DNA of 52,798 nucleotides from a virus. Taxonomy: Duplodnaviria; Caudoviricetes. Positions 2,932 through 51,369 of the stretch are shown piece by piece; the first letter of the stretch is position 1, and every line of letters starts with the position of its first letter. The translations under genes were made by a program, and so were the position numbers. The notes beneath the pieces are model-generated. The model saw nothing but the letters and a program-made list of their open reading frames with translations, was not told where the DNA came from and did not search any database. The DNA is taken from positions 1 through 52,798 of the IMG/VR virus record IMGVR_UViG_3300009182_000084; one strand, written 5' to 3'.

Positions 2932-3480
2932 TTAGTTAGTTGTAATAAGCCTTGTATAAGTTACGTCGGTTGTCCAATTTTGTTTGGCCCAATCCATAAC
3001 CTTGATTCGCTGGGTGCGAACTCCAGGATGTGGTGCGTGAATCATATACCCTTTACCTATATAGATACCTACGTGACCTGGGAATCCAATGATGTCACCA
3101 ACTTTTGCTTTTGATTGAGAGTACTTGTGTGGTTTAGCACTGTACTTCTCTACATAAGCGCTGTGGTGCAGCGTGATTCCTATTTGTTCGTAATACCACA
3201 TAACGAGACCTGAGCAGTCCCACCCTTTTGGAGTGTTACCCGAAAATACGTACCATGTTTTGTTTACGTATTTCTTCAGTTCTCTAGTAACGGTTTTTAC
3301 ACGTTGAGTGTAGACAAGGACTACGAGTCCTTTGGCACTCAAGGGATTCCACAATCCCTGTTCCGTCTTTGATGTGACGGCTGTGGAGGCTTTCTCCACG
3401 TTTATAGCAGCGACTGCACCAGAGGCAGAGCAACCTGCCAATGTCAATAGCAGGGCTGCGAATGCAATGAACTTCTTCAT
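2932..3480 (-). CDS. NlpC/P60 family peptidoglycan endopeptidase with lipoprotein signal peptide
   Basis: YVFSG..PKGWDCSGLV, GDII, GHVGIYIGKGYMIHA catalytic motifs; lipobox LAGC. Confidence 0.92.
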   Translation of the reverse strand: MKKFIAFAALLLTLAGCSASGAVAAINVEKASTAVTSKTEQGLWNPLSAKGLVVLVYTQRVKTVTRELKKYVNKTWYVFSGNTPKGWDCSGLVMWYYEQIGITLHHSAYVEKYSAKPHKYSQSKAKVGDIIGFPGHVGIYIGKGYMIHAPHPGVRTQRIKVMDWAKQNWTTDVTYTRLITTN

Positions 3481-4675: not shown

Positions 4676-4751
4676 TGGAGCCTCAAGCAGGACTTGAACC
4701 CGCCACCTTCTCATTACAAGTGAGATGCTCTACCAGATGAGCTATTGAGGC
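4676..4751 (-). tRNA. tRNA-Thr(TGT)
   Basis: GCCTCAA acceptor stem, TAGCTCA..GGTAGAGC D arm, CTCA-CTTGTAA-TGAG anticodon arm, GGTTCAAGTCC T arm, encoded CCA. Confidence 0.95.
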
Positions 4752-4804
4752 AATCGGCTTCTCAATCCCTGTGTAAACTGCCACTGGCACATATTGAAGC
4801 CTTG

Positions 4805-4876
4805 CTGACCACCCTGGACTCGAACCAGGAACCTACGAGTTAACAGCTCGGTGCTCTGCCATTGAGCTAGTGGTCA
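4805..4876 (-). tRNA. tRNA-Asn(GTT)
   Basis: TGACCAC/GTGGTCA acceptor stem, CGAG-CTGTTAA-CTCG anticodon arm, GGTTCGAGTCC T arm; CCA not encoded (CAA). Confidence 0.93.
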
Positions 4877-4880
4877 GTAG

Positions 4881-4960
4881 TGGACATGCACAGAATCGAA
4901 CTGTGGTCTTACAGATTCCTACTGGAGGCTTTGTTCTGCAATCGACACCATTTCATGCCC
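4881..4960 (-). ncRNA. miniature tmRNA-like RNA: tRNA-like domain only, no mRNA-like domain
   Basis: GGGCATG/CATGTCC-A acceptor stem with G3.U pair, stemless D-loop AAATGGTGTCGA, helix TTGCAGA/TCTGTAA, GAC linker, CACAG-TTCGATT-CTGTG T arm. Confidence 0.8.
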
Positions 4961-4964
4961 TTGA

Positions 4965-4990
4965 CCTAGAGGAGCCGAAACTCCCCTAGG
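4965..4990. terminator. stem-loop between hsp20 and the RNA genes (terminator or processing signal)
   Basis: CCTAG-AGGAG...CTCC-CCTAGG inverted repeat; T-rich tail on the plus strand only. Confidence 0.5.
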
Positions 4991-5010
4991 ATTTTTAGTT
5001 TACACCAATA

Positions 5011-5526
5011 TTACTTGATGTCAATTACCTTTGGTTTCTTTTCTTCAGGAAGGTTCTTCTTAAAGGTTACAGTTAGCATACCTTCCTTGACTTCTGCTCC
5101 AGCAATTTCCCAGAACTCAGCAATAGCAAGCTCGAGCTTAAAATCACGAGTAGCAATGCCCTGGTAAACAATAAGTCCCTTGTCTTTTTCCTTCTTCTCA
5201 CCCTTAATGGTAATGATTGAATCCTGGAAAACAACAGACAACTCTTCCTTAGAGAAACCAGCAACTGCTACATTGAGCAGGTTCAGGTCAGTCTCAAGTG
5301 CGACAATGTCGTACGGAGGGTAAGAGGGCTTGTTATTGGTAACTTCCTTGAGAGTTTCAAGGATTGGAGACCAGCCAATAGATAGGCGGTCTAGACGTGG
5401 GAACAAATCAGCAATTGTGATTGGCTTTGGAATTGGTGGTACTTCCCAATTCTTCTTCATGTTCTTATCCCAAGGGTCATGAGGGCTACGCTCATAAGGG
5501 CTTGGATAATTATTCTTGTAGTTCAT
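5011..5526 (-). CDS. Hsp20/alpha-crystallin small heat-shock protein
   Basis: SYPPYDI, AVAGFSKEEL, YQGIATRDF, A..KEGMLTV, PEEKKPKVIDIK motifs of IbpA-like sHSPs. Confidence 0.93.
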   Translation of the reverse strand: MNYKNNYPSPYERSPHDPWDKNMKKNWEVPPIPKPITIADLFPRLDRLSIGWSPILETLKEVTNNKPSYPPYDIVALETDLNLLNVAVAGFSKEELSVVFQDSIITIKGEKKEKDKGLIVYQGIATRDFKLELAIAEFWEIAGAEVKEGMLTVTFKKNLPEEKKPKVIDIK

Positions 5527-13685: not shown

Positions 13686-15032
13686 ATGTACGCAGTGATT
13701 ATGAAATCAAGCACTCCTATTGGTGTGCGTTCGACAGTCATCATACCTAATGGTGAAGATGACCCACGAATCTTCTCCCGTATTGGAGAAGGTCGTGGTC
13801 GAGCGTTCCCTTGGGAAGAAGGCATCGTAGATATGAAGGAGACTGAACAGGTAATCGGTGAGCCGATTGCCAAACAGATTACTCCATCTGACTACGCTGC
13901 CTTAGCCAATGGTGGCAAGCCAACAGTGTTGCTTGCTAAGTTGGCACAGGCTATGGCTGATGCTGTTGGGGTAACCAACCCTGACCCAGCAACAGCAGTG
14001 TTCGATGACATCTACAACGATGCTTCTGAAGACCCTGCCAACCTAGCAACTTACCTTGAGAAAGTAGTTGCTAACCCTGTAACACCAGCAGTAATTACAG
14101 CACCACAGCCAGTGGTGTACATACCAGAGCAAGAGATTGCTCTACCTAATGTAACCCCAACAGAAAGTGAGACTCCTATGGAGTACGGAACACCTATCCG
14201 CCCAGCATCAAGCGACTTAGCAGTGCTTGAGATTCCTGACAAGGAAGATTACTACGAGCGTTCTTGGTTCGGTCTTACCGAGACTGACCTGTATGACTAC
14301 GCTAGCAAGTTCAGCAAGGCAGTGCTTATTACTGGTCCTGCTGGTACAGGCAAGTCATCAAGTGCTCGTAACTATGCTGCCAAGCGCAACCTGCCATTCG
14401 TTACCATCGAATGTACTCAGCAGATTGACCAGTCAGTTACTCAAGGTCGCTTCGTTCCAACTGGTGTAGGCAACAGCCTGCGTTGGAAATACAGCCAGTT
14501 GGCTACCGCAATCCAGCAGCCGTCAGTCATTCTGCTCAACGAGATGTCTCGTATGAGTGGTAAGTCTGCTGTGCTATTCTTGCGTCTCCTACAAGAGCGT
14601 GAGTTGATTGTAGATGTACACAATGAGGTCATTAAGGTTCACCCACAATGTATCATCATTGCTGACCAGAACGTAGGCTCTGCTTACACTGGTGCTAGCA
14701 AGCAGGATGCTGCGCTGGTTGACCGCTACGCAGTCAAGATGGAGTTTGACTACGACACCAAGATTGAGAAAAACTTCATCAAGTCACCTGCGTTGCTCAA
14801 GTTTGCTAGCGACATTCGTGATGCGTCTCGAGTGACTGATGACTTCTCGGTGCCAATGTCAACTCGTGTGCTGATTGAGTTCCAGCACAAGTTGTCCAAC
14901 CTCAAGAACTGGGACTTCGCACTCTACGATTTCCTCAACAACTTCCCTTCAGAAGAAGGAGAGCGTGAGGCTATCAAGATGCGTCTTGAGGCTGAGGCTG
15001 ACACTATCAAGTCTGAGTATGGTATCAACTAA
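13686..15032 (+). CDS. MoxR/CbbQ/CobS-like AAA+ ATPase
   Basis: Walker A GPAGTGKS, Walker B variant ILLNE, DAALVDR arginine-finger region, STR sensor. Confidence 0.88.
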   Translation: MYAVIMKSSTPIGVRSTVIIPNGEDDPRIFSRIGEGRGRAFPWEEGIVDMKETEQVIGEPIAKQITPSDYAALANGGKPTVLLAKLAQAMADAVGVTNPDPATAVFDDIYNDASEDPANLATYLEKVVANPVTPAVITAPQPVVYIPEQEIALPNVTPTESETPMEYGTPIRPASSDLAVLEIPDKEDYYERSWFGLTETDLYDYASKFSKAVLITGPAGTGKSSSARNYAAKRNLPFVTIECTQQIDQSVTQGRFVPTGVGNSLRWKYSQLATAIQQPSVILLNEMSRMSGKSAVLFLRLLQERELIVDVHNEVIKVHPQCIIIADQNVGSAYTGASKQDAALVDRYAVKMEFDYDTKIEKNFIKSPALLKFASDIRDASRVTDDFSVPMSTRVLIEFQHKLSNLKNWDFALYDFLNNFPSEEGEREAIKMRLEAEADTIKSEYGIN

Positions 15033-15045
15033 TACTCATCTAAAC

Positions 15046-15071
15046 AGGGGGAGGGCAATCGCTCTCCCCCT
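15046..15071 (+). terminator. GC-rich hairpin between AAA and vWA genes
   Basis: AGGGGGAGGGC-AATC-GCTCTCCCCCT followed by TTAT. Confidence 0.6.
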
Positions 15072-15092
15072 TTATGTTATGAAAGGAATACA

Positions 15093-16952
15093 ATGACAAG
15101 TATCGGTACACTTACTGGTCAAGTAGAGGCGTATAACAATGCGCCTGTTGATGACCGTATGGCTCGTGTTGCTCAGGTTATGTCTAAGTTTGCCAGCACA
15201 CTAGTGCTCAAACCTATTGGCGTTGAGTTAGAAAAGAGTGGTCCAGCAGCAGCGTGGTCAGACTCCGACACTATCTGGTTCAACACCAGCGAAGTCATGG
15301 TGCCTACTACACCTGAAGATGTCATCGCTGTTCGTGGTCTTGCTCTTCACGAGATTAGCCACATCATGATGACACCTAGCGTTGGCACTAAACTAGGTAA
15401 GCGTGTTATGGCTGCTAGGTTGTGGCGTGCGTTCAACTGTCTTGAGGACCAGCGCATTGAGACTTGGATGGTATCTAGGTTCAGCAATGTATCCTCTTGG
15501 CTACAAGGTACTGTGTCCTCATTCTTGCTCAAAGAGATTGAGAACTACAGCGTTATGTTCCCGCTCATTCATGGTCGCAAGTATCTACCGCTTGCTCTTC
15601 GTAACAAGATTCAATCTATGTATGAAGACCAAGTAAATGTGTCTGCTATTAGTGCGTTGATTGATGAGTATGTTCAACTCAATGTTATGGACTCTAGGTC
15701 ATACGACAGAGCGTTTGAGATTGTGGAAGAGTATAGTCGCCTAGTCAATCTAGGTCTTGACCGTGCTAGCATTGGTCACCCTTGGATGCGACAAGATGGT
15801 TGGGGTCGTGTTCCTGACCCTAATGGTCACGGCAAGGGTAGACCTGATGAGTATGGTCAGAAGCCTATGACTGGTAAGCAGGCTAACCCCATCATTGTTA
15901 AGGTTCAGCAGGCTATTGCTAAGGACAAGGCACAAGGTGTTGGTAATGGTGAAATTGAGCAATCAACACCACAGCAACAGCCTAGTGAGTCACAGCCTCA
16001 GCGTGAAGCCAATGACCTTAAGGAAGATGTGCCACAAGTCAAGCACATACCACCTGTGTCTAATGGTGCTAGCGAGTTGGAAGGTATCATTGCTTCCGTA
16101 CTTGACCGAGTCAAGGAGGATATGCAGGTAGAGATTGATAAGAACCTGCGACAGTTTAGCGGTGAACTAGAACTCAATAGCAAGCGATTGCCTGACCCAC
16201 CTAAAACTCGTAGTCATTGGTGGGGTAGTGCTGACTTTGCGCCATCAATTGAGGTTGTTCAATCTAGCAAGTCGTTTGCTAATGAGTTGAAGAAACTCAA
16301 GTCAGACAACGAGCCTGGTTGGTTGCGTAAGACTGAGGCAGGCAAACTCAATGTTGCTAGGTACGGCACTGGTTGTGAGACTGACGAAGCCTTTGACCTA
16401 TGGGACTTGGGTCGTGAGGATGCGGTAGACATTGAGTGCGTTATCTTGCTAGACAACTCTGGTTCTATGGGTAATAGGATTCAAGAAGCGTACGAAGCAA
16501 TGTGGGCTATCAAGCGTAGCATGGACAAGGTTGGTGCTTCTACCACTGTCGTTGCGTTTAGCGATACTGATAGAACCATCTACTCAGCCAAGGATAGGGC
16601 AGGTAAGGTTGTGCCACACATTGGTCTAGGTGGTGGCACTATGCCATTCAACTCTCTTCGCTATGCTCGGTCTGTGTTTGCCAATAGCACTCGTGCTATC
16701 AAGATTCTTATACCTATCACCGATGGTGCGTGGGCACAGTCAGAAGAATCTAACCGCGTCATTCGTCAGTTGCGTAGTGCTGGTGTAGTTACCGCACTAG
16801 GTATGATTGATGCTAACAAAGATAACAATGGCAAGTATGTTATTGATGCCCATGGTTGTGAGGTAGCAGTTGCTATTGATGACATTCGTAACCTGTTCCA
16901 TCTAGCCAAGGCTGTAGTCAGGGTTGGCATTGACCGCAACCTTAACAAGTAA
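15093..16952 (+). CDS. vWA-domain protein with N-terminal HExxH metallopeptidase-like domain (CobT-like)
   Basis: LALHEISH and FNCLEDQRIE; MIDAS LLDNSGSM, GGT, ITDG. Confidence 0.88.
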   Translation: MTSIGTLTGQVEAYNNAPVDDRMARVAQVMSKFASTLVLKPIGVELEKSGPAAAWSDSDTIWFNTSEVMVPTTPEDVIAVRGLALHEISHIMMTPSVGTKLGKRVMAARLWRAFNCLEDQRIETWMVSRFSNVSSWLQGTVSSFLLKEIENYSVMFPLIHGRKYLPLALRNKIQSMYEDQVNVSAISALIDEYVQLNVMDSRSYDRAFEIVEEYSRLVNLGLDRASIGHPWMRQDGWGRVPDPNGHGKGRPDEYGQKPMTGKQANPIIVKVQQAIAKDKAQGVGNGEIEQSTPQQQPSESQPQREANDLKEDVPQVKHIPPVSNGASELEGIIASVLDRVKEDMQVEIDKNLRQFSGELELNSKRLPDPPKTRSHWWGSADFAPSIEVVQSSKSFANELKKLKSDNEPGWLRKTEAGKLNVARYGTGCETDEAFDLWDLGREDAVDIECVILLDNSGSMGNRIQEAYEAMWAIKRSMDKVGASTTVVAFSDTDRTIYSAKDRAGKVVPHIGLGGGTMPFNSLRYARSVFANSTRAIKILIPITDGAWAQSEESNRVIRQLRSAGVVTALGMIDANKDNNGKYVIDAHGCEVAVAIDDIRNLFHLAKAVVRVGIDRNLNK

Positions 16953-23879: not shown

Positions 23880-25373
23880 CTATTCTAATGAATCCTTGAT
23901 TATGAACGTGGTTTGCTCTTCGTTTAGTGGCTGATTTAGCTCTCGCAATGCCTGCGCTTTGTCACCAAAAATTGCTGACAGTACACCTCCCGATGTCTGG
24001 CGGCTGGCAGTAATCTGAACAAACTCTTTATTGCTTTCCAGGTCCTTGACTGACGCCACCAACTTCAACAATCTGTCCATTTCCTGGGACGTATTTGGGT
24101 CTGCGTATCCACCATTCAATTCTTCTGCAAACCGCATAAATGCTACTCTCTGGCCCTGCATCTCAACAATTGCGGTCAACAAACCCTTCAGCTGGTCCTT
24201 GGTTTTAACTTCAATTGGCAGGTTAAATGCACACGTGTTTGCTGGCTTAAATGCGGGGCAATTCGCTGCGACAAAACAGGTATCGCACTGTCTCAAACTG
24301 GCACTATTGGACTGAACTACGGGCACATCTTTTAGTACATCACGACCGTCTTCTGTCTCCACAATAGTCTTCATCTGATACCCCAAAACAGGCATTGAAA
24401 TGACTTCATTTGGGTCTCTTTGCACTACCTCTGTGCGTTCAACTTTCCGCACTTCGGACCCCTTGTTATTAGATGGGTCTATATCCAAATCCATCAAACC
24501 ACTGTATAGGGTATTATCACTGTTATCAGATACTTTGTCACCTTGAATGAGCTTCAGCTCTGGTTTTTCTTTATCCATTTGCTTCTCTAACTGTAAATAT
24601 GACCAAACCGCAACTTTTGTTGCTTCTAATGTGTCATCACCTTTGAACTTACCAAAATCAAATCCCGCTTTTTCAACTACACTTTTGTATCTTAAACGGG
24701 CTTGGTCTTTCATCTTTTTTGGATAACGAACCAGCTTTGACCCGTCCCAAATAATTGTTTCACCTCGCCGCATTGGGCTCAACCACGACAATGTGCTGGC
24801 AGTATCAAATGGAATTTGCCTCAGATTGTCTGGTTTTGCTGTTGCCAATGCGTGGAACTCGGTCCCGTATGTTCTTTTTAAACTTCTAACTGTTCCTGAT
24901 AATGACGTAACTGTTTCGATTACATCCCCTGGAATTGCAACATTTTTGTACTCTTCCGACCACTGTCGCAACATGGCAGAACTGTATGTATCGTGCCAAA
25001 CTACCCACATCTTTGGGTCATTTTCAAATGCGGCCCGCTGCTGTTGAACCCAATTTAGGCCCAACACTTGGCTATCAAACTCTACCCAGCCTTCAATTCG
25101 TTCATAATTTAATGCAATAAACTCTTCATAGTCCGCCGCGTACTCCTCGAGCTCACGAACTGACCACCCAGCTTTATCTGCTTGAACTGCTCCTGAATCT
25201 ACCCACACTTTCATGTTTGGGAGGAAATGCTCACCAATTAGATACGCCTTTGTCTTTGGCAAACCTCTTTTGCGCAATCCCCAGTACGACAACATAACTT
25301 GGTCTACGCCTGTGCGTTCCAATAACGTCCTGTTTGATGGTACTTCTACCCCACCAAAAATCAACTTACTCAA
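23880..25373 (-). CDS. two-domain protein: degenerate TGT/DpdA-like TIM-barrel plus Cys4/helical C-terminal domain
   Basis: VWVDSGA, VVWH, VAIPG, FHALA, STLSW echo the phage LDSGAF/PVWH/HGFG/DSSSW TGT-like family; CDTC..NC...TC cluster. Confidence 0.55.
   Translation of the reverse strand: MSKLIFGGVEVPSNRTLLERTGVDQVMLSYWGLRKRGLPKTKAYLIGEHFLPNMKVWVDSGAVQADKAGWSVRELEEYAADYEEFIALNYERIEGWVEFDSQVLGLNWVQQQRAAFENDPKMWVVWHDTYSSAMLRQWSEEYKNVAIPGDVIETVTSLSGTVRSLKRTYGTEFHALATAKPDNLRQIPFDTASTLSWLSPMRRGETIIWDGSKLVRYPKKMKDQARLRYKSVVEKAGFDFGKFKGDDTLEATKVAVWSYLQLEKQMDKEKPELKLIQGDKVSDNSDNTLYSGLMDLDIDPSNNKGSEVRKVERTEVVQRDPNEVISMPVLGYQMKTIVETEDGRDVLKDVPVVQSNSASLRQCDTCFVAANCPAFKPANTCAFNLPIEVKTKDQLKGLLTAIVEMQGQRVAFMRFAEELNGGYADPNTSQEMDRLLKLVASVKDLESNKEFVQITASRQTSGGVLSAIFGDKAQALRELNQPLNEEQTTFIIKDSLE
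24520..24534. repeat. 15-bp exact direct repeat CTGTTATCAGATACT, copy 2
   Basis: Identical to 23864-23878; lies in the inter-domain linker coding region. Confidence 0.85.
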
Positions 25374-28352: not shown

Positions 28353-28544
28353 CTAGACCATGCGATTAACGACACGGTTAGCCATCTTTTTTTCGTGACA
28401 TGTTGGGCACAACAATTGATTCATAACTTGAATAGGATTCATCATAATTCCACATGTAGGGCATGGTCGTGAACCATTCATAATTCCGTCTACTACAGCC
28501 TTGGCTTGTAGGTCCATGGTGTAGCCACCGTCATCAGTATCCAT
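28353..28544 (-). CDS. zinc-finger microprotein
   Basis: CPTC...CPTC. Confidence 0.7.
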   Translation of the reverse strand: MDTDDGGYTMDLQAKAVVDGIMNGSRPCPTCGIMMNPIQVMNQLLCPTCHEKKMANRVVNRMV

Positions 28545-31321
28545 TATTCGCCCCTAAATGCTGCGAGGTTCTTGGCTGCACGGCTATTTGACCCACTAAG
28601 GGTTGGTGGCGGTGCAGTAGGCGTGCTTACAGTTTTCACATTTTTAGGCAATACAGTAGGTACAGATTGAGATTCTGGTCTCTCATTTACGTATTCTTCT
28701 AGATAACGGTGTGGGTCAGTGTAGGCCGTACTTGATGCGTAGTCTTTAGAGTGAGCAGCGTGCTTCTTAAGAAGAGTTGTATATGCTTTTTCATCTTTAG
28801 GATTACCGCTAGTTTCTGATAGCTTTCTTGCAGCAGCTAGCTGGCCAACAGTAGCTGGTGCAGGATTCCAGCTTAGCCAGTCTTTTCTAGCGGCTGCGTG
28901 CGCCACTTCAAATGCATCAAATAGAGGCTTTTGTTTTGCACTGGGGGTCTTTACTGAGCTGTAATCTTTAAGAGTTAGTGGGCCACTAAATTCTTTTTCT
29001 TTTTTAGTTCTCGTAGTAGAACCTACGGATGGCTCTTCTGTAGCCTTTGCAGCCGCAGCTTTTGCACGTGCTTCAATAATCTCTGGGTGGTCCTTAATCC
29101 ATTGAGCATTAAACGCCTCCGTGGATTTACGTGCACGTTGAGCTGAAGGAGAATCCATCTCTGTTCCATGAGTAATGCCCTTGGCTTCCTCTGCTCTACG
29201 AAGTCTGGATGGGTTTGCAGAAACTGTACGGGTAAACTTTTCTCCAGTTTTTGGATTTGTAGCCTCTACTTCTCTAGGGCTGGCGCTTTGACCATTAACA
29301 GTTACTTCACCTTTGTAACCCAAAGTTGTTTGTCCTGCGTCAAGTCCTTTGCGCTGGCGGTATGCCCTGATACTTCTAAGAGTTCCGAGTTCCGCTACCT
29401 TTTTTTCCTTTTCTGCTTCTGCGGCTTGCTTCAGTTCCTCTGGAGTGCGTGGACGTGTACGTTCAGCTTCTTGAGCTGCTCTGTTTGTTTTCTCACGCTC
29501 AGTAATTCTTTGCAAAAGTTCTTCAGGAGAATCAGCAAAACCAACAATGACGCCCTTTTTATTGCCCTGCTTGTACTTAACTTTAATTGGGGCTTCGGCA
29601 ACTTCGGGCGTTCTAACTTGCCTAAAATCATTTACTGTAAAATCTGGAACACGACCAGCTTTGTGCCATTCTTGAATCTGTTTGCTAGTTGCAATGTTAA
29701 AAGCAGCGGTTCGTAGAGGTCCAAGTTCCTCTCCCCTAAAGTTAACCTTGTTTCTAGGAATCTTAATGCCTGCTTGCTGCATGCTTTCGATTTCTTTTTG
29801 GTGCTTTTTTGCAATTGCTTCGGATTTAGAACCGACAAGCAATGACCTGTTATCAAAATTGTTTGCGTGCTGCCAGTCCATGATTTTTTCAGCCATTTCT
29901 GGGTTGGCATACTCGCTCAAATCAGATTTTTTGTACCTATTAACAGCCATAAGGGCTGCTTGACCATAACGAACACCGTGGTAATCGTTTTTAAATCCGT
30001 GTCTGTAAACTTCTTTTCCAGGATAAGCTGCCTCTACACCTTCAAATCCTGGGATGTCTGTTCGAACATTCTTTGCTGGCCTGTCCTCACTAAACATTTC
30101 TGCAGGAATGGGGTTACCCAGTACGGTACGACTAACGTCTTCTAGTTTACCTGCCAAAGTTCCGATATGTTTAGCTGCAAGAAGAGCGTGCTCTACACCT
30201 GTTTGTGCGCCATTAACATCATCATCAACAGTCACGTACTCTTCTTTTGGAGCACGAGCTGTAAAGTCAGCAGGTGAACCACCACCTTCACCTACAGATT
30301 CAAGCTGAGCTGGTGTGTAGTTCTGACTCTGTACTGGACGACCAAATGCATTTAGGTCTTTGGCCTTAACTCTAGGGCTAATAACTCCTTCACCACGTCC
30401 GTGAGCAAGGTTAGCGTTTCCTAGATGGTTCCACATTTCATTTGCTAAACCAGATAGGTGCTCCAAATCTTCGTGGTAAGCTCCAGGAGCAGTTCTTTGA
30501 ATAGCGTCTCTAACTTGTCCAAGTCTGTGATTTAGACTTGATGCAATGAGGTGAAGGTCTCCAAGACCAGGGCCCATGTCATTGGCCGCCTTACGGTCAC
30601 TAGAAGTTATTTCTTCTAGAGCACCTGGACGAGCAGCTTTAGGCATGCGGAAAGTCTCATCTCCACCGCCAGATTCCCTAACTTCTTTAGCTACAGCAGC
30701 TTCGGAAGGAGTTGAAGTAGGGCCACCAGAATCAAGATTCTGGTCACTCTTTATAATATCTTCTCTTTCTGCTTTTAGCATTTTTTTAATAGCGTCTGAG
30801 TAGGCTTCGCTTGCTTGTTTTCTATTGGTATTTACTGCGGGGGCTTTAGCAGCCGAACCAACATTTTGACGTGATACTGTGAAATCACCATTTGGGCCCT
30901 CTGTAGTTGACCCAATAACTGATGCAAGAGTGTCATTAATTTTTGCAATCTTTAACGCATCTTCAGCATTTCTTACTTTTTTACTTCTAGAACGAGGTGG
31001 CTCTACAAGACCTACCTTACGTCGTGCAGCCTTTACCTCATCTGTGGTAGCACCTTTTCTAGGTACGACTCCAGGTACAAGAACACCCGTGTCTTTTAAT
31101 GTCGCTTTTGCTGCGGATTTTGCTACGGTTTTATCTCCAACAGCTTCTGCTTGGTCTTTAGACAGACCTGAATTCTTACGTTTTGCATTTGTTTTACGGG
31201 TTTGTTCAGCCGCCTCTTCAACGCTAGGTTTGCCTGCATTGGCACGACGGCGCGCTTCCTCTAGGTCAACATTAATATCTGCGCCCGAACCACCCGTAGC
31301 ATTTAGGTTTTTCTTAGCCAT
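28544..31321 (-). CDS. large Ala/Lys/Glu-rich, largely disordered hypothetical protein
   Basis: 925 aa, no Cys, no recognisable domain. Confidence 0.85.
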   Translation of the reverse strand: MAKKNLNATGGSGADINVDLEEARRRANAGKPSVEEAAEQTRKTNAKRKNSGLSKDQAEAVGDKTVAKSAAKATLKDTGVLVPGVVPRKGATTDEVKAARRKVGLVEPPRSRSKKVRNAEDALKIAKINDTLASVIGSTTEGPNGDFTVSRQNVGSAAKAPAVNTNRKQASEAYSDAIKKMLKAEREDIIKSDQNLDSGGPTSTPSEAAVAKEVRESGGGDETFRMPKAARPGALEEITSSDRKAANDMGPGLGDLHLIASSLNHRLGQVRDAIQRTAPGAYHEDLEHLSGLANEMWNHLGNANLAHGRGEGVISPRVKAKDLNAFGRPVQSQNYTPAQLESVGEGGGSPADFTARAPKEEYVTVDDDVNGAQTGVEHALLAAKHIGTLAGKLEDVSRTVLGNPIPAEMFSEDRPAKNVRTDIPGFEGVEAAYPGKEVYRHGFKNDYHGVRYGQAALMAVNRYKKSDLSEYANPEMAEKIMDWQHANNFDNRSLLVGSKSEAIAKKHQKEIESMQQAGIKIPRNKVNFRGEELGPLRTAAFNIATSKQIQEWHKAGRVPDFTVNDFRQVRTPEVAEAPIKVKYKQGNKKGVIVGFADSPEELLQRITEREKTNRAAQEAERTRPRTPEELKQAAEAEKEKKVAELGTLRSIRAYRQRKGLDAGQTTLGYKGEVTVNGQSASPREVEATNPKTGEKFTRTVSANPSRLRRAEEAKGITHGTEMDSPSAQRARKSTEAFNAQWIKDHPEIIEARAKAAAAKATEEPSVGSTTRTKKEKEFSGPLTLKDYSSVKTPSAKQKPLFDAFEVAHAAARKDWLSWNPAPATVGQLAAARKLSETSGNPKDEKAYTTLLKKHAAHSKDYASSTAYTDPHRYLEEYVNERPESQSVPTVLPKNVKTVSTPTAPPPTLSGSNSRAAKNLAAFRGE

Positions 31322-35294: not shown

Positions 35295-35588
35295 TTAGCT
35301 CGCGGAGATTGCAAAGACAATTGCTGAAATCTCGCCATCACGAGATTCAATTGTAGTAAAACCAGGCTTGCAGGTTAGGTCTAATCCTCGTGGGGCCACA
35401 TAGCCTCGTGCGATTGCTAGTGCTTTTACTGCTTGGTTTACTGCGCCAGCACCTACGGCACGAAGTTTTACTTCACGCTTGTCATAGATTGCATGGGCCA
35501 CTGCCGATGCGACGGATTGTGGATTGCTACCTGCTGAAACACGAAGGAATGGTTCCTCTGTAGAAGGTAGGATGATTTCTTCACTCAT
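35295..35588 (-). CDS. spoVS: SpoVS-family protein
   Basis: LRVSAGSNPQSVASAVA...AVGAGAVNQAVKALAIARGYVAP.GLDL...PGF. Confidence 0.93.
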   Translation of the reverse strand: MSEEIILPSTEEPFLRVSAGSNPQSVASAVAHAIYDKREVKLRAVGAGAVNQAVKALAIARGYVAPRGLDLTCKPGFTTIESRDGEISAIVFAISAS

Positions 35589-36362: not shown

Positions 36363-36770
36363 TTACTCCTGTGGCCACTCGTTATCAAGAACCAGCATAG
36401 CAATGATTGCGTAGTTAGCCATGTCAAGGAATGAATCTTTTAAACTCTCATTCTCTGGCGTAACGCCACTATCAATAAGGTTATTGATACGTGCAAACTT
36501 ATCCCACATACGTACTCTTAGTCCGTTCAGAGGTCCGCCAGGGCTCTGTGAGATGTTCTTTGGTCCGTAGTCCTTGTGCTTTTGTAGTAGCACTGACTTG
36601 GCGTGCTGGAACTTTTGCTGAACTGCTTCATCAAACTCACCAGTCGCACCCTTACGAATCATATCCACAATCTCCTGTGGCAAGTCCTTAACTTCTCCAA
36701 GAAGACTCATATCAGCTGGGTTGATACCCTGCTCCTCAAGCTCCATGTATAGTTCCTTCATTTTTCCCAT
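36363..36770 (-). CDS. DUF1599/Nmad1-like all-alpha nucleotide pyrophosphohydrolase-like protein
   Basis: KHKDYG..NI, VRMWDKFARINNL, ESLKDSFLDMANYAII. Confidence 0.8.
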   Translation of the reverse strand: MGKMKELYMELEEQGINPADMSLLGEVKDLPQEIVDMIRKGATGEFDEAVQQKFQHAKSVLLQKHKDYGPKNISQSPGGPLNGLRVRMWDKFARINNLIDSGVTPENESLKDSFLDMANYAIIAMLVLDNEWPQE

Positions 36771-37649: not shown

Positions 37650-38497
37650 TAGTCCTCCTTGTATGGTGAGCAGTAGTCGCAGGTTCCTCCAGGGTTGTTG
37701 TTGCAATCTGGCACTACCTTAGCTTCTACAGCTTTTACTACTTTTTCACAGTTGTCAAAGATGTGACGAACCAGTTCGTAGTCTGCCTTGACGGTAAACT
37801 CCTTGTATGACTGGTCAGCCTTGAGCTCGTAAATAAATACAATCTCGTTAACCTCGTGACCCATACGCTTCATCAACTCAAGGTACATTTGACCTTGCAT
37901 AATGTGTGCGCTAAATGGGCGGTTGATGTTTTTCCATGCAGTAAACAAGTCTACGTCTTTCATTAGACCTGGGTCTGCATGGCGGATAGTTCCTGGACCA
38001 ATTGTCTTAAGCTCAATCAGGCAGTCATCGCCAATCCCGCGAACCCAACCATCAGTGTGCCCCTTGATACGTAGAGCATCATCATAAAGAGTTACTTCAC
38101 GGTATTCCATAGTAGGACGGTTACATGATGGGCAGTCTACTGGACCAAAATCAAATAGAGAAAAGTCGCAAGAGGTACAGCTAAAGCGACCATAAAGTAC
38201 ACCCATCTCCTGGAAGTAACGCTGCCACTTAGCATGGGCTGCGTGTCCCTCATCAAAGATAGACTGAAGCTTTAGATTTGGTTTCTTTGCAATCTTTTCG
38301 TGACCACTCAAAAGGAAGTATGACTCACGACGGCACCAATCTTTTTTAATAATTTCAGATGGGTGCAAAACAAGCGTACTGCGGTCTCCAACAGGGCGCT
38401 TTTGCAGATGACGCTCAATGTCACCAAGCAAACGAGTCTGCTTAGTTTTTGCATCCAAGAATCGTTTTAGTTCTGCGCTACTAGCCTTTACTACCAT
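37649..38497 (-). CDS. Cas4/RecB-like PD-(D/E)xK exonuclease
   Basis: HPSE..WC.R, G...H, GHTDG, IELKT, QGQMY, C-terminal C..CDYC. Confidence 0.85.
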   Translation of the reverse strand: MVVKASSAELKRFLDAKTKQTRLLGDIERHLQKRPVGDRSTLVLHPSEIIKKDWCRRESYFLLSGHEKIAKKPNLKLQSIFDEGHAAHAKWQRYFQEMGVLYGRFSCTSCDFSLFDFGPVDCPSCNRPTMEYREVTLYDDALRIKGHTDGWVRGIGDDCLIELKTIGPGTIRHADPGLMKDVDLFTAWKNINRPFSAHIMQGQMYLELMKRMGHEVNEIVFIYELKADQSYKEFTVKADYELVRHIFDNCEKVVKAVEAKVVPDCNNNPGGTCDYCSPYKED

Positions 38498-38822
38498 TTG
38501 TTTTCCTTCTTTCTTGAAAGACATACTCTTTCAAAGTCATACTACTTTTATATTGCCTATTCCATTTTCTTACTAGAGCATTACGTTCACGGTGAGATAG
38601 CCCTCCCCAGATTCCATGTTGCTCATCATTTAAAAGTGCATCCCATAGACACTCTAGTCTAACAGGACAAGGCGGTTTTCCGCTACCCCCATAACAGTAG
38701 GCCTTAGCAAGGTCTGCTGTTTTTTTATATAGAGCCTTATCTCTGGGTGGAAAGAATATCTCTGGCTCAGGTTCTGGAAGCCCTCTACATGAGGCGTCCT
38801 CATACCATCGCTCACTCGCCAT
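38481..38822 (-). CDS. whiB: WhiB-family transcription factor (second copy)
   Basis: W...ASC..IFFP..AKAYC...CPVRLECL..AL...HGIWGGLS..ER. Confidence 0.92.
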   Translation of the reverse strand: MASERWYEDASCRGLPEPEPEIFFPPRDKALYKKTADLAKAYCYGGSGKPPCPVRLECLWDALLNDEQHGIWGGLSHRERNALVRKWNRQYKSSMTLKEYVFQERRKTNGSKG

Positions 38823-48975: not shown

Positions 48976-49395
48976 TTAAAGATTCTCTAGTTCGATTCCT
49001 GCAGAACCATATCTTGCCACACGTTCCCTAATATCCACAACACCTTTCAAATTATTGCGGTAAGGAAGTTCTCCAATAAAGTCCTCGATGTCGTTGTAGA
49101 GTTCCGCATAGTTAAATGGGTTACCTCCACGACGGTCCAACTTATCCATTACATCATCTAGTTTCTTCTGTGTCCAGAGCTCGCTAGAAAAACCAGCCAA
49201 CTCCACTGATAGTCCATACTTGTTTGAGATGTTCCAGAGTTGTGAAAGAGCAAGGTTCTTTAGTCCCCTTACTTTTCTTTCTGTTACTGGTGGTAGAAAT
49301 ATTTTGTTAGTTGTTTCAACATCTGAATCAAGAACCACGTCTACTAGAACAATGATTCGTGGAGATGTTTCATTTGAAATGTCTCCGCCCTTCAT
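48976..49395 (-). CDS. hypothetical protein, possibly degenerate HAD-like fold
   Basis: MKGGDISN...RIIVLVDVVL. Confidence 0.6.
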   Translation of the reverse strand: MKGGDISNETSPRIIVLVDVVLDSDVETTNKIFLPPVTERKVRGLKNLALSQLWNISNKYGLSVELAGFSSELWTQKKLDDVMDKLDRRGGNPFNYAELYNDIEDFIGELPYRNNLKGVVDIRERVARYGSAGIELENL

Positions 49396-49700
49396 TCAAG
49401 CACCTCTACTGGAGCATACTTAATAATGAATTGTCTAAAAGCTTCTGAGTTTGCCATAGCTTCATAAGCCTCTTCATCTGGAACATTTTCGGGAATACGT
49501 ATTGCGTAATGTCCTTCGTTCTTTTCCATGTGTTCTTTTACGTAATTAACGTGCTTGCACCTTGCTCTAGACATGAATGATGGGCAACTACAGCGCACTT
49601 TTTTATTATTTTCCACATCAATTTGAACTTCACAAACACCGTCTTCAGACAAAAACATTTGAACGGTTCTCCAGTCAATATCCATTTTTTGTCCCTTCAT
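49392..49700 (-). CDS. SWIM zinc-finger protein
   Basis: CSCPSF....CKH. Confidence 0.8.
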   Translation of the reverse strand: MKGQKMDIDWRTVQMFLSEDGVCEVQIDVENNKKVRCSCPSFMSRARCKHVNYVKEHMEKNEGHYAIRIPENVPDEEAYEAMANSEAFRQFIIKYAPVEVLE

Positions 49701-50422
49701 TATTTCTTGCGAAGGTCTTCACCCTTGATACGGACACGAATAAACGCTTCGTGTGCAAAGCTGCCCATAGCTTCGCCATACTGTTCTTTCCAAACTTCAC
49801 GGGCCACGTTTGTAGTGATGATTGTTGGGAGTGCTTTGTCATAACGACTACGAAGAATCTCATCAAACGAAGTGTCGTCATACTTTGAACCATATTCCTT
49901 GCCAAGGTCATCAAGAACCAAAACACGGACATTCAAGTGGTCATCTTTTGCACGACCATGAAACCCCTCCATCTCTCGATAAAGGTCTTTCTTGCTTTCA
50001 GAGTCAGCGTCAATCAAAGCCTTCTTGCGAGAAAGAAATTCTGGGAAAGTCATGTAGTAAACAGGACGAGCATTCATCCCATAGTTTTCTGCACTCATTC
50101 CAAGAACCTCACGAGCCTGGTCGTTTTCTTCTGGAAGACGACGAACAAACTCCATCAAAGAAGTTACAGCATGCGTAGTTTTTCCTAGACCTGGACCACC
50201 ATCAAACAAAAGTCCAACGCCAGTAGTTCCTAGTCCACCTACCTGCTTGATAACCTCGCCATCAAGAGCCTGCTCTAGCCAGTCCTCAATGATTGCAGGA
50301 AAACTGCCCATGGTCTTTGCGATATCCGATGGCTCAAGACCAAGAAATCTGCGTGGAATGTTTGAATTTTTAAGCAACCAGTAGCGCTTGTTGCTTGATA
50401 GTGAATTGATGTCGTATGACAT
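49700..50422 (-). CDS. DnaC/IstB-like AAA+ ATPase (helicase loader)
   Basis: IPRRF, GGPGLGKT, LVLDDLGKE, RY....PTIITTN, GEDLR. Confidence 0.88.
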   Translation of the reverse strand: MSYDINSLSSNKRYWLLKNSNIPRRFLGLEPSDIAKTMGSFPAIIEDWLEQALDGEVIKQVGGLGTTGVGLLFDGGPGLGKTTHAVTSLMEFVRRLPEENDQAREVLGMSAENYGMNARPVYYMTFPEFLSRKKALIDADSESKKDLYREMEGFHGRAKDDHLNVRVLVLDDLGKEYGSKYDDTSFDEILRSRYDKALPTIITTNVAREVWKEQYGEAMGSFAHEAFIRVRIKGEDLRKK

Positions 50423-51369
50423 TATGCCCTCCTTAGTTTTTCTTCGTAACGTTCTAATGCTGCCCTACCTGGCATAGAGTTGTCAAACTCAGTACCATCT
50501 GATGCTTTAATAACTTCATCCATCTTAGTCTCAACCACAGTTACTGATGACTGCTCAGCTACAAAATTAGTGATTGCATTCAAGAAAACTCCGTGAGTAT
50601 TTTTTGGAAACTTACGAAGAGTAGCGACGTTTCTAGCATCTGAAAAGAACTTGTCCATTGCAGCTATTTCTACTGCAGCAGTAGTCCCATACTTCTTGCG
50701 GTTAGTAGCTAGAGCAATGGAAAGGCGTTTGGTATTGACCATCCCTGGAACTCCAGGAATCTTTGCATAAACACGGCTTGCAAATTCTGAAGCAACCATC
50801 TGTGCAGTCCACGATTCAGTAGGACGCTCACTACGGTGTGCCTTTGTCTTTGCCTGCTTTTGCGCTGCTGGTAGTTCGCCCTCAAGCAAACCTACACCAG
50901 CAATATCATCGTCATCATTCCAACGATTAACCATCTTGCCCTCCATCGGGGCCTTGGCCCCAAAAGAATACGAAGTATTCTTTACTATTGTCTTATCTGT
51001 ACCAGTAGTAACAATTACAGTATTACTATCAGCTGTTGATGTTGCATCTGTGAAACATGGTACAACACTATTTGGTGCTGTGTCAACACCCTCATGTTTA
51101 TTTTTGAAACATGGACTAATCAAACGATAATTGTTTTTATGGAGCTTGCCAAGATTGCGCTTGGTGCGGTTAATTGCTAGCAGACCCTTTGACTCTAGCA
51201 CAGACATGTCCCGCCACAATGTTGTGCGGCTAAGGCCCGTTGCTATTCCTAAAGTATCCATGGTTGCGTCTACCCCACCATTAGAATCTGCCATTCGATT
51301 CATAATAGCAAACAGGTAGAATTCATTAGGTTTTAGACCCATGTCCAAAACCTCATCAGGTATTTCCAA
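50422..51369 (-). CDS. putative replication initiator with N-terminal winged HTH
   Basis: TLGIATGLSRTTLWRDMSVLESKGLL..NNYRL; directly upstream of DnaC-like gene. Confidence 0.7.
   Translation of the reverse strand: MEIPDEVLDMGLKPNEFYLFAIMNRMADSNGGVDATMDTLGIATGLSRTTLWRDMSVLESKGLLAINRTKRNLGKLHKNNYRLISPCFKNKHEGVDTAPNSVVPCFTDATSTADSNTVIVTTGTDKTIVKNTSYSFGAKAPMEGKMVNRWNDDDDIAGVGLLEGELPAAQKQAKTKAHRSERPTESWTAQMVASEFASRVYAKIPGVPGMVNTKRLSIALATNRKKYGTTAAVEIAAMDKFFSDARNVATLRKFPKNTHGVFLNAITNFVAEQSSVTVVETKMDEVIKASDGTEFDNSMPGRAALERYEEKLRRA

What the first reader, a model, noticed from the sequence alone, without database searches (positions are those of the whole stretch)
4881..4960. 80-nt 'mini-tmRNA': intact tRNA-like domain with the whole mRNA-like domain missing
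Seen (minus strand): GGGCATG AAATGGTGTCGA TTGCAGA ACAAAGCCTCCAGTAGGAA TCTGTAA GAC CACAG TTCGATT CTGTG CATGTCC A. Established tmRNA hallmarks present: 7-bp acceptor stem with the G3.U alanine identity pair and A discriminator, stemless D-loop with GG..TCGA, helix 2a, GAC linker, canonical T arm. The roughly 250-300 nt of pseudoknots and tag ORF are replaced by 19 nt. Both ends are present in normal order and pair perfectly, unlike an integration scar or a permuted gene. It heads the tRNA cluster; CCA would have to be added, as for the adjacent tRNA-Asn. Inference: an alanylatable SmpB-binding RNA that either sponges SmpB and blocks host trans-translation, or enters stalled ribosomes without adding a degradation tag. 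I know tag-less tmRNAs from some mitochondria, not from phages.
Basis: partly seen in the sequence, partly recalled or inferred. Interest (0 to 1): 0.9.

Follow-up and report, generated by a model that had tools for sequence, protein, structure and literature searches.

The report
Phage mini-tmRNA lacking its coding part
A freshwater phage carries an 80-base RNA gene that is only the tRNA-like end of the bacterial ribosome-rescue RNA (tmRNA); it belongs to a widespread, mostly unannotated phage family whose one published member was reported to block the host's rescue-and-tagging system.

Summary
Window 4881-4960 (-) reads exactly as described and is a real, selected RNA gene. A covariance model built from it finds 75 full-length copies, 59 of them distinct, in 74 IMG/VR contigs plus the window. 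In these, 98.3% of cells are paired, 17 of 22 pairs show compensatory changes and G3·U70 is kept in 56 of 58.

The same model hits the published "TLD-only" tmRNA of mycobacteriophage DS6A end to end (58.8 bits). It also hits an unannotated copy in Streptomyces phage LuckySocke, and BLAST finds full-length copies in four more cultured Streptomyces phages. Seven relatives pass Rfam's tmRNA threshold with about 300 model positions deleted. The window copy itself does not.

Eleven phage genomes that carry the gene, eight of them at least 90% complete, have no SmpB and no full-length tmRNA. WhiB points to an actinobacterial host.

The phage precedent exists: DS6A is in print (PMC4131195, PMC11915505). 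This is therefore a new member of a known but barely studied kind. The likeliest role is an alanine-accepting RNA that binds host SmpB and competes with host tmRNA, suppressing tagging. Tag-free ribosome rescue is the main rival. Function is untested.

The parts
4881..4960 (-). 80-nt TLD-only (coding-part-less) tmRNA gene
   Evidence: Sequence. Model R1 scores 108.3 bits, E 1.5e-31. 75 family copies. Homolog of the DS6A element.
4954..4960 (-). Acceptor stem, 5' strand (GGGCATG). G1, G2 and G3 were not imposed by any search pattern.
   Evidence: Pairs with 4882-4888. G1:C 57 of 58, G2:C 58 of 58, G3·U 56 of 58. Pairs 4-6 covary.
4942..4953 (-). Stemless D-loop AAATGGTGTCGA (tmRNA-type GG..UCGA)
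   Evidence: In relatives it aligns without gaps to the RF00023 consensus D-loop.
4935..4941 (-). Helix P2a, 5' strand (TTGCAGA)
   Evidence: All 7 pairs with 4909-4915 show compensatory changes across the family; 97% of cells paired.
4929..4934 (-). A-rich 5' bulge (ACAAAG) between P2a and the cap hairpin
   Evidence: Alignment columns 36-39 are A 53 of 59, A 55 of 59, A 40 of 59, and A or G 57 of 59. These lay inside the free gap of the search pattern.
4918..4928 (-). Cap hairpin CCT-CCAGT-AGG that replaces about 300 nt of tmRNA interior
   Evidence: All 3 pairs have compensatory changes; 94.8% of cells paired. Variants are listed.
4909..4917 (-). 3' bulge AA (4916-4917) and P2a 3' strand TCTGTAA (4909-4915)
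4906..4908 (-). GAC linker before the T arm
   Evidence: G 57 of 59, A 59 of 59, C 55 of 59; not imposed by the pattern. Matches GGAC of the RF00023 consensus.
4889..4905 (-). T arm CACAG-TTCGATT-CTGTG
   Evidence: 100% of cells paired; 4 of 5 pairs have compensatory changes.
4881..4888 (-). Acceptor stem 3' strand CATGTCC and discriminator A (4881); no encoded CCA
   Evidence: The TCCA end is kept in all 59 distinct copies. A scan without TCCA added 0 members among the 15 new loci listed.
4804..4876 (-). tRNA-Asn (GTT), 4 nt downstream of the mini-tmRNA on the same strand
   Evidence: ARAGORN. Rfam tRNA 63.7 bits.
4676..4751 (-). tRNA-Thr (TGT), same strand, with encoded CCA
4964..4996 (-). 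Stem-loop between the hsp20 stop and the mini-tmRNA. It has no T-run, so it is not a canonical terminator.
   Evidence: Seen as a weak CrcZ/beta_tmRNA-like hairpin. No terminator was called.
4997..5024 (-). Promoter-like site TTGACA-16-TAAACT about 37 nt upstream of the RNA's 5' end
   Evidence: 10 of 12 matches, but the number of sites in the region is no higher than in shuffles. This is only a lead.

Best explanation
This is a phage gene for a TLD-only tmRNA. It is an ~80-nt RNA made of the tmRNA acceptor stem, stemless D-loop, T arm, helix P2a and a short conserved cap, with no pseudoknots and no tag reading frame.

Shown:
- It belongs to a conserved, covarying family of phage genes that includes the published DS6A element.
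- It keeps the full alanine identity set (G1:C72, G2:C71, G3·U70, A73) and the D-loop and GAC platform.
- It sits in the phage tRNA array.
- Carrier phages encode neither SmpB nor a full tmRNA.

Inferred:
- It is transcribed with the neighbouring tRNAs and trimmed by the tRNA processing enzymes.
- The host adds CCA, and host AlaRS charges it with alanine.
- It has no template to offer, so it competes with host tmRNA for SmpB and for stalled ribosomes. This lowers ssrA tagging, and the proteolysis that follows, during infection.
For: Identity:
- Exact sequence and segmentation.
- R1 model hits on 75 copies, all 75-81 nt.
- Covariation in all four helices.
- DS6A hit at 58.8 bits, E 6e-16, model positions 1-80.
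- LuckySocke hit at 47.7 bits.
- RF00023 above its 47-bit threshold for L200 (69), L121 (67.8), L202 (50.8), LuckySocke (57.1), L122 (51.3), L144 (51.4) and L093 (47.1), each a global alignment with the interior deleted.

Not a recent deletion:
- All relatives are short.
- The window and L002 share the element at 72 of 80 identical bases, while their Hsp20 proteins are 68% identical and the flanks do not align.

Charging is selected:
- G3 is G in 56 of 58 copies although A-U would pair as well. G1, G2 and G7 are near-invariant, and none was imposed by the pattern.
- 15 of 68 loci encode CCA.

tRNA-like processing:
- 22 of 68 loci have a same-strand tRNA within 300 nt, often 0-4 nt away.

Dependence on host SmpB:
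- 0 of 11 carrier genomes have SmpB. 0 of 11 have a long tmRNA. The window has none either.

Function in print:
- PMC4131195 (passages): a molecule like the DS6A TLD, chargeable or not, strongly inhibits tmRNA, perhaps by titrating SmpB.
- PMC11915505 (passages): the DS6A form was shown to inhibit endogenous tmRNA when expressed in E. coli.
Against: - No expression, charging or SmpB-binding data exist for this family member.
- The three lake metatranscriptome runs laid hold contigs over hsp20, and one of them (X6) also over thioredoxin. None covers 4676-4980, which is uninformative for a small structured RNA.
- The window copy gets no RF00023 hit even at E<=10. tRNA-sized hits in ordinary genomes score 30-43 bits on RF00023 in this deletion mode, so scores near 40, as for DS6A at 43.2, do not discriminate on their own.
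- The primary paper (Mao et al. 2009) could not be read. According to PMC4131195 inhibition did not need charging, yet the family conserves the alanine identity. A pure sponge does not explain that.
- The strongly conserved A-rich bulge and cap hairpin are not explained by this mechanism.
- Blocking ribosome rescue could also hurt the phage.
- The gene is accessory. 5 of 5 Hsp20-relatives without it beside hsp20 lack it elsewhere on their contigs, including one 98% complete genome.
Confidence: 0.55

Rival explanations
1. Tag-free ribosome rescue for the phage's benefit. The charged RNA with host SmpB enters stalled ribosomes, accepts the nascent chain and displaces the broken mRNA. The peptidyl-RNA is then released by drop-off and peptidyl-tRNA hydrolase, or by an ArfB-type factor. 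Ribosomes are recycled without marking proteins for degradation. This role has been proposed for mitochondrial tmRNAs that lack a coding part.
For: - The alanine identity set and the UCCA end are conserved. This is needed for ribosome entry but, according to PMC4131195, not for inhibition.
- 15 of 68 loci encode CCA.
- The conserved bulge and hairpin suggest a job beyond SmpB binding.
- PMC11915505 argues that mitochondrial tmRNAs without a coding part still help cells deal with incomplete mRNAs.
Against: - The only experimental statement available is inhibition.
- No Pth, ArfB, RtcB or SmpB gene was found in the window.
- No release mechanism is known for such an RNA.
Confidence: 0.25
2. Decoy or counter-defence RNA. 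It binds or distracts a host factor other than the rescue machinery, for example defence proteins with SmpB-like domains, RNase R, or nucleases and ligases acting on tmRNA or tRNA.
For: - CoCoNuT restriction systems carry SmpB-like domains predicted to bind tmRNA, and RtcB's most frequent target is reported to be tmRNA (PMC11090510, passages).
- tmRNA and tRNA fragments take part in an anti-CRISPR complex (PMC11662646, passages).
- DS6A also encodes an RtcB-like ligase.
Against: - This rests on prediction only. Nothing in the window links the RNA to a defence or anti-defence gene.
- It does not explain the conserved alanine identity.
Confidence: 0.06
3. A complete but tiny tmRNA. The cap encodes a micro tag of about six codons (in the window GCC TCC AGT AGG AAT CTG TAA) that is translated after the alanine.
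For: 36 of 59 distinct copies have an in-frame stop before the T arm when read from the RCC triplet, mostly after 6 codons. The other two frames give 11 and 20 of 59.
Against: - 23 of 59 copies lack the stop, including DS6A. LuckySocke, read in frame by eye from the alignment, also has none.
- Close relatives differ by 1-nt indels that break the frame (L141 against L103; L134 and L097 against L151 and L156).
- The 'stop' is the paired 3' end of P2a. A full-length actinobacterial tmRNA has TAG at the same place before GAC, so the triplet is structural.
- A loop of about 33 nt can hardly thread the mRNA channel while the TLD sits in the P site (inference).
Confidence: 0.03
4. A remnant without function: an integration-site scar, a decaying tmRNA gene or an odd tRNA pseudogene.
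For: - Phages often integrate into ssrA and carry pieces of it (PMC9004378, passage).
- The window copy is missed by ARAGORN and by Rfam thresholds.
Against: - Both halves are present in normal order with perfect pairing.
- Covariation spans GC 31-69% lineages.
- Length is fixed at 75-81 nt.
- No integrase was found in the window. In DS6A the element lies about 10 kb from the integrase.
- There is no D stem or anticodon loop, and the Rfam tRNA model does not match.
Confidence: 0.03

Closest known systems
TLD-only tmRNA of mycobacteriophage DS6A (tmRNA Website tmID 11587; 'Phage__Mycobacterium.9')
   Same: - Same 80-nt length and the same order of parts.
- Same G3·U acceptor, stemless D-loop with AATGG..TCGA, and 7-bp P2a.
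- Same A-rich bulge plus a 3-bp CCG/CGG cap hairpin, T arm and discriminator A with no CCA.
- R1 model hit of 58.8 bits over positions 1-80.
   Different: - Only 44 invariant columns in the 4-way alignment.
- The DS6A record is GC-rich (locus GC 0.69) and its phage carries a tyrosine integrase. The window phage is 40-47% GC, comes from fresh water and shows no integrase in the fragment.
- DS6A's copy lies between gp33 and the DNA polymerase III gene, not in a tRNA array.
- Its linker is CAC rather than GAC, and its cap loop is 4 nt.
Canonical one-piece tmRNA (Rfam RF00023)
   Same: The tRNA-like domain and P2a. Relatives align to both ends of the model without gaps in the D-loop, T arm and acceptor.
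   Different: - The whole interior is absent: P2b-d, PK1-PK4, the resume codon, the tag frame and helix 5. That is about 302-304 of 374 model positions.
- The window copy does not reach the model's threshold.
- The D-loop signature GGGNNNGNAATGGTGTCGA gave one match in 401 sampled Actinomycetota genomes, and that match is not a tmRNA.
Mitochondrial and plastid tmRNAs without a coding part (Rfam RF02544; Mallomonadaceae plastids)
   Same: A TLD with no tag reading frame and reliance on an SmpB encoded elsewhere (PMC11915505, passage).
   Different: - No RF02544 match at E<=10.
- Organellar rather than viral.
- No evidence of shared descent with the phage family.
Phage-encoded full-length and two-piece tmRNAs (mycobacteriophages Bxz1 and Wildcat, Bacillus phage G, Melnitz-like marine phages)
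   Same: Phage-borne ssrA-type genes, often near tRNA genes (PMC4131195; PMC9004378).
   Different: - Those keep the tag frame. For example, the EniyanLRS record annotates a tag peptide.
- The permuted model RF04321 gives only 14.2 bits here, and the halves are in standard order.

Membership tests
tmRNA (tRNA-like domain, Rfam RF00023) | 7-bp acceptor stem with G3·U70 and discriminator A73 (alanine identity; this definition is recalled knowledge) | tested here: met
   In the family G3·U is kept in 56 of 58 copies, G1:C in 57 of 58 and G2:C in 58 of 58.
tmRNA (tRNA-like domain, Rfam RF00023) | D-loop without a D stem carrying GG..UCGA, helix P2a, a GAC linker and a T arm with a GUUCRAUUC loop | tested here: met
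   Relatives align gap-free to the consensus of these parts. P2a and the T arm covary.
tmRNA (tRNA-like domain, Rfam RF00023) | Score at or above the Rfam gathering threshold (47 bits) | tested here: inconclusive
   The window copy has no hit at threshold or at E<=10. Seven family members pass: L200, L121, L202, LuckySocke, L122, L144 and L093. tRNA-sized hits in ordinary genomes reach 30-43 bits in the same mode.
Canonical (complete) tmRNA | mRNA-like domain with a resume codon and a tag reading frame ending in a stop | tested here: not met
   Only 19 nt lie between the P2a strands. The micro-frame is not conserved: 23 of 59 copies have no stop, and indels break the frame.
Canonical (complete) tmRNA | Pseudoknots PK1-PK4 and the long helix 2 | tested here: not met
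   About 302-304 model positions are missing in relatives. The total length is 80 nt.
Phage TLD-only tmRNA (DS6A type) | Sequence and structure homology to the DS6A element over its whole length | tested here: met
   R1, built without DS6A, hits JN698994 28478-28557 at 58.8 bits, E 6e-16, positions 1-80. Alignment.
Phage TLD-only tmRNA (DS6A type) | Inhibits host tmRNA activity; binds SmpB; chargeable with alanine | not testable with these tools
   Known only from statements in PMC4131195 and PMC11915505 about the DS6A-like molecule. The primary paper is not held.
Two-piece (permuted) tmRNA, Rfam RF04321 | The 3' acceptor piece precedes the 5' coding piece; model score at or above 47 bits | tested here: not met
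   14.2 bits, E 0.28, covering the 3' half only. The halves are in standard order.
Mitochondrial tmRNA, Rfam RF02544 | Match to the family model | tested here: not met
   No match at E<=10 on 4850-5000.
tRNA, Rfam RF00005 | Cloverleaf with a D stem and a 7-nt anticodon loop | tested here: not met
   Not called by ARAGORN or by Rfam at threshold or at E<=10. The 12-nt D region has no stem, and the cap loop is 5 nt.

The most novel reading that the evidence does not exclude
The phage mini-tmRNA is not a mere sponge but a self-sufficient, template-free rescue RNA. Charged with alanine, it takes the nascent chain from stalled ribosomes. Its invariant A-rich bulge and CC/GG cap hairpin then serve as the signal that gets the complex resolved, through factor recruitment or programmed drop-off. 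Phages across many lineages (GC 31-69%) would thereby recycle ribosomes during host mRNA destruction while keeping proteins untagged. That would be a second, minimal mode of trans-translation. It would also be a working model for the unexplained organellar tmRNAs that lack a coding part.
Probability: 0.2. Interest if true: 0.85.

Novelty: new member of a known kind. Interest (0 to 1): 0.55.

Why it matters
TLD-only tmRNA has so far been a curiosity in the literature held here. It appears as one phage (DS6A) in a table and two sentences, beside organellar forms whose function is unknown.

This window shows the phage form is not a one-off. It is a conserved, covarying gene present in at least 74 uncultured viral contigs, one of them the DS6A genome itself, and in five cultured Streptomyces phages, where it is unannotated.

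If it does what the DS6A-like molecule was reported to do, many phages deliberately interfere with host ribosome rescue or tagging using about 80 nt of RNA.

The cultured Streptomyces phages offer a harmless system in which to ask what a tmRNA without a message does. That question is also open for mitochondria and plastids. In practice, annotation pipelines (ARAGORN, Rfam thresholds) miss most of these genes.

Tried and rejected
- **Micro tag frame.** Rejected after counting frames and seeing the same TAG-GAC in a full-length tmRNA.
- **Expression.** One run search and one lay. RNA contigs from the three lake metatranscriptome runs laid cover hsp20, and X6 also covers thioredoxin, but nothing lies over 4676-4980. 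One contig ends at 4981. Contigs cannot show a small RNA, so this is no evidence either way.
- **Host through prophage copies.** The genome-contig scan (68 loci) gave only two short forms of this family. L200 sits on a 7.3-kb contig of a Saccharibacteria MAG, and L202 on a 16.6-kb contig of a cyanobacterial MAG. Both genomes also hold a normal tmRNA. The other loci are 3' parts of normal tmRNAs, a different Eremiobacterota RNA, or fall below the model's E 0.01 cut.
- **Host tmRNA mimicry.** The family's D-loop signature matched 1 of 401 sampled Actinomycetota genomes, and that match is neither a tmRNA nor a mini form.
- **BLAST of the window element against GenBank phages.** Nothing relevant was found. 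Megablast of 20 kb of the window gave no match.
- **ARAGORN's permuted 'tmRNA*' over the L146 copy**. Judged spurious: it has an odd tag starting with V, and the mini form there is complete with CCA.
- **Promoter and terminator scan**. One good-looking -35/-10 pair, but the count is no higher than in shuffles.
- **Not tried.** The metagenome-contig scan was not used.

Full report
**1. What is in the sequence**

In order it has:
- a 7-bp acceptor stem (GGGCATG/CATGTCC) whose third pair is G·T;
- a 12-nt D region, AAATGGTGTCGA, with no stem;
- a 7-bp helix (TTGCAGA/TCTGTAA);
- 19 nt between its strands;
- GAC, a T arm (CACAG-TTCGATT-CTGTG) and an unpaired A.

Four bases further on the same strand lies tRNA-Asn (4804-4876), then tRNA-Thr (4676-4751). 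Upstream lies an Hsp20 gene (5011-5526) and downstream a thioredoxin gene. Neither ARAGORN nor Rfam at its thresholds calls the element. With permissive settings only the 3' half gives weak tmRNA-type matches (tmRNA_permuted 14.2 bits, beta_tmRNA 10.1 bits). The mitochondrial tmRNA model gives none. Alone, the fold is only modestly better than shuffled sequence (z -2.17).

The window is an IMG/VR viral contig estimated 38% complete. It has 40-47% GC and is held by freshwater and lake sequencing runs.

**2. It is a conserved gene family, not a chance hairpin or a fresh deletion**

Of six viral contigs that encode a related Hsp20 (64-78% identity), one (L002) has the element at the same place. 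It is 72 of 80 bases identical there, while the flanks do not align.

Two exact-pattern scans of the viral collection found more copies. Ten distinct close variants pair in all 220 cells of the proposed structure. Eight of 22 pairs carry compensatory changes, and 0 of 500 shuffles did as well.

A wider degenerate pattern fixed only parts of the D-loop, the T loop and the TCCA end. It returned 79 stretches holding 63 distinct sequences, with locus GC from 0.31 to 0.69.

The covariance model R1 was built from the ten close variants. It matched 75 of the 80 sources searched, all full length at 75-81 nt. Five longer pattern hits were not matched (L095, L109, L138, L139, L153).

On the 59 distinct sequences:
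- 98.3% of cells are paired;
- 17 of 22 pairs have compensatory changes;
- the covariation score is 0.690, against 0.172 in shuffles (0 of 500 as high) and at most 0.105 when partners are slid.

This alignment was fitted to the model, which favours the structure. The size of the effect and the independent ten-sequence test make that a minor caveat.

**3. It is a tmRNA tRNA-like domain, and a homolog of a published phage element**

Literature search turned up two papers.
- Hudson, Lau and Williams 2014 (PMC4131195; passages read) list "Mycobacterium phage DS6A (TLD only)". [quoted passage not shown] They add that a similar molecule, chargeable or not, strongly inhibits tmRNA, perhaps by titrating SmpB, citing Mao et al. 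2009.
- The 2025 tmRNA database paper (PMC11915505; passages read) says the DS6A form was shown to inhibit endogenous tmRNA when expressed in E. coli. It places that form beside mitochondrial and two plastid tmRNAs that lack a coding part.

Mao et al. 2009 is not held, so I saw none of its data.

R1 contains no DS6A sequence. It hits the DS6A genome once, at 28478-28557, with 58.8 bits (E 6e-16) over model positions 1-80. The two RNAs have the same length and the same parts, including the A-rich bulge and a 3-bp CCG/CGG cap hairpin. The DS6A copy is unannotated in GenBank. It lies between gp33 and the DNA polymerase III gene, about 10 kb from the integrase.

Independently, Rfam's tmRNA model RF00023 (threshold 47 bits) matches seven family members globally:

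| Member | Bits |
|---|---|
| L200 | 69 |
| L121 | 67.8 |
| LuckySocke | 57.1 |
| L144 | 51.4 |
| L122 | 51.3 |
| L202 | 50.8 |
| L093 | 47.1 |

In the two alignments shown (L200 and L121) the D-loop, P2a, GGAC, T arm and acceptor align, and 302-304 interior positions are replaced by 9-11 nt. L122 is a close relative of the window copy (R1 87.8 bits).

Two cautions apply. The window copy itself does not reach RF00023. tRNA-sized hits in ordinary genomes score 30-43 bits in this deletion mode, so DS6A's 43.2 bits would not be convincing alone.

**4. Features under selection**

The search pattern did not impose the following, yet they are nearly invariant:
- G1, G2, G3 and G7 of the acceptor: G3·U70 in 56 of 58 copies, with A-U in L111 and L137;
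- the GAC linker;
- an A-rich stretch on the 5' side of the cap (A 53, A 55, A 40, and A or G 57, each of 59);
- the CC..GG hairpin (52 of 59);
- an A after the hairpin (54 of 59).

A further scan that dropped the TCCA requirement found 97 stretches, of which 80 were listed. None of the 15 new listed loci is a family member. The TCCA end is therefore a real property, with the caveat that 17 stretches were not listed.

The RF00023 consensus shows a short GA-rich bulge followed by a C-rich strand after P2a. The cap may be the stump of the P2a/P2b junction. This is inference.

**5. Context**

Among 68 distinct loci, 22 have a same-strand tRNA within 300 nt, often 0-4 nt away, and 15 encode CCA after the discriminator. 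The window copy does not encode CCA.

In 11 carrier genomes (8 at least 90% complete, plus the complete LuckySocke genome) there is no SmpB gene. There is also no full-length tmRNA. The only RF00023 hits above threshold are the mini forms themselves. The window has no SmpB either.

The gene is accessory. The five Hsp20 relatives that lack it beside hsp20 lack it on their whole contigs, including one 98% complete genome.

**6. Hosts**

The window encodes a WhiB-type regulator (38481-38822; Pfam 59.2 bits against a cut-off of 23.6). WhiB as a hallmark of Actinobacteria and their phages is recalled knowledge. It is supported by the control, where only Corynebacterium among 14 reference genomes matched.

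WhiB is found in 7 of 9 carrier genomes that are at least 90% complete, weakly in two of them. It is absent from two complete ones.

Cultured carriers are DS6A and five Streptomyces phages: LuckySocke, GiJojo, pSt2308, Alone3 and BRock.
- BLAST finds full-length copies in all five Streptomyces phages, at 78-100% identity to the LuckySocke copy.
- The model was run on LuckySocke only, where it scores 47.7 bits.
- In LuckySocke the gene sits unannotated in a tRNA array next to a thioredoxin gene, much as in the window.

Family loci with GC near 0.31, and copies in Saccharibacteria and cyanobacterial MAG contigs, suggest the family is not confined to actinophages.

The family's D-loop signature is not that of sampled host tmRNAs. 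It matched 1 of 401 Actinomycetota genomes, and that match is not a tmRNA. A Geodermatophilus tmRNA has a similar but shorter D-loop. The phage form therefore looks like an old lineage of its own rather than repeated recent captures.

**7. How it most likely works**

Shown: an intact tmRNA tRNA-like domain with its alanine identity, no template, tRNA-array context, and no phage SmpB.

Recalled knowledge, not from any call: isolated TLD constructs can be alanylated, bind SmpB and EF-Tu, and accept a peptide on stalled ribosomes in vitro.

Inferred: the RNA is processed like a tRNA, receives CCA, is charged, binds host SmpB, and competes with host tmRNA for SmpB and for stalled ribosomes. ssrA tagging then falls. 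This agrees with what is reported for the DS6A-like molecule. I give it 0.55.

The main rival, at 0.25, is tag-free rescue. It explains better why the charging identity and the cap are conserved, but it has no experimental support and no known release step. The decoy, micro-tag and remnant readings are each at or below 0.06, for the reasons listed under Rival explanations.

**8. Novelty and verdict**

The kind is already in print for one phage, so this is a new member of a known kind.

What I did not find in print is the breadth of the family or any experiment on a natural carrier phage. That rests on searches. The library lacks most subscription journals, and I could not see supplements of the tmRNA database paper, which may list more phage entries. 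Interest is moderate (0.55).

Noticed in passing
L169, L171, L180, L182, L197, L203, L204, L206, L212, L214, L223 (genome-contig loci; element at about 2001-2073 in most): Eleven Eremiobacterota, Vulcanimicrobiota or WPS-2 MAG loci hold a different 72-73-nt tmRNA-TLD-like RNA. It has a GGGGCGG acceptor with G3·U, a D-loop TTCGATGGTGTCGA, an 8-bp helix, a 9-nt loop often centred on CGA, and a T arm. Scores are R1 25-34 bits and RF00023 39.7 bits for L214. ARAGORN calls one of them tRNA-Ser(cga). One such genome also has a normal tmRNA (114 bits). It could be a chromosomal TLD-only RNA or a D-arm-less tRNA with alanine identity.
   Followed up: partly
L200:1867-1921 (-): A type III hammerhead ribozyme match (41.2 bits, threshold 48.5, E 5.8e-06) lies about 80 nt downstream of the mini-tmRNA on the 7.3-kb contig of a Saccharibacteria MAG.
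   Followed up: no
JN698994.1 28478-28557; OR725497.1 17977-18054; also PP725410.1, PV588686.1, OR725492.1, KX925554.1: The mini-tmRNA genes of cultured phages DS6A, LuckySocke, GiJojo, pSt2308, Alone3 and BRock are unannotated in GenBank, or lie under a 'hypothetical protein'.
   Followed up: yes
window 23880-25373 (-), 36363-36770 (-): A queuine tRNA-ribosyltransferase-like gene (PHROG 887, no Pfam hit at 1e-3) and a DUF1599 'nucleotide modification associated domain 1' gene. Together they hint at a DNA base-modification module.
   Followed up: no
window 13686-16952 (+): An AAA_5 (MoxR-like) ATPase is followed by a 619-aa protein with a C-terminal VWA domain. The function of this pair in a phage is unclear.
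   Followed up: no
window 35295-35588 (-), 2932-3480 (-): A SpoVS-family protein (Pfam 100.7 bits) and an NlpC/P60 peptidase with a lipoprotein signal, both in a WhiB-carrying freshwater phage.
   Followed up: no
L085 (DS6A) 49300-50502: DS6A, the published carrier of a TLD-only tmRNA, also encodes an RtcB-like RNA ligase. A paper passage says tmRNA is RtcB's most frequent target in bacteria. No RtcB was seen in the window fragment.
   Followed up: no
L005:3560-3690 (+): In a 98% complete Hsp20-relative that lacks the mini-tmRNA, the space before tRNA-Asn holds a GC-rich hairpin ending in A (GGGGCACC...GGGTGCCCC A). It looks like an acceptor/T-arm minihelix.
   Followed up: no
L111, L137: Two family members have A3-U70 instead of G3·U70 and a weaker cap hairpin. 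They may be uncharged variants.
   Followed up: no
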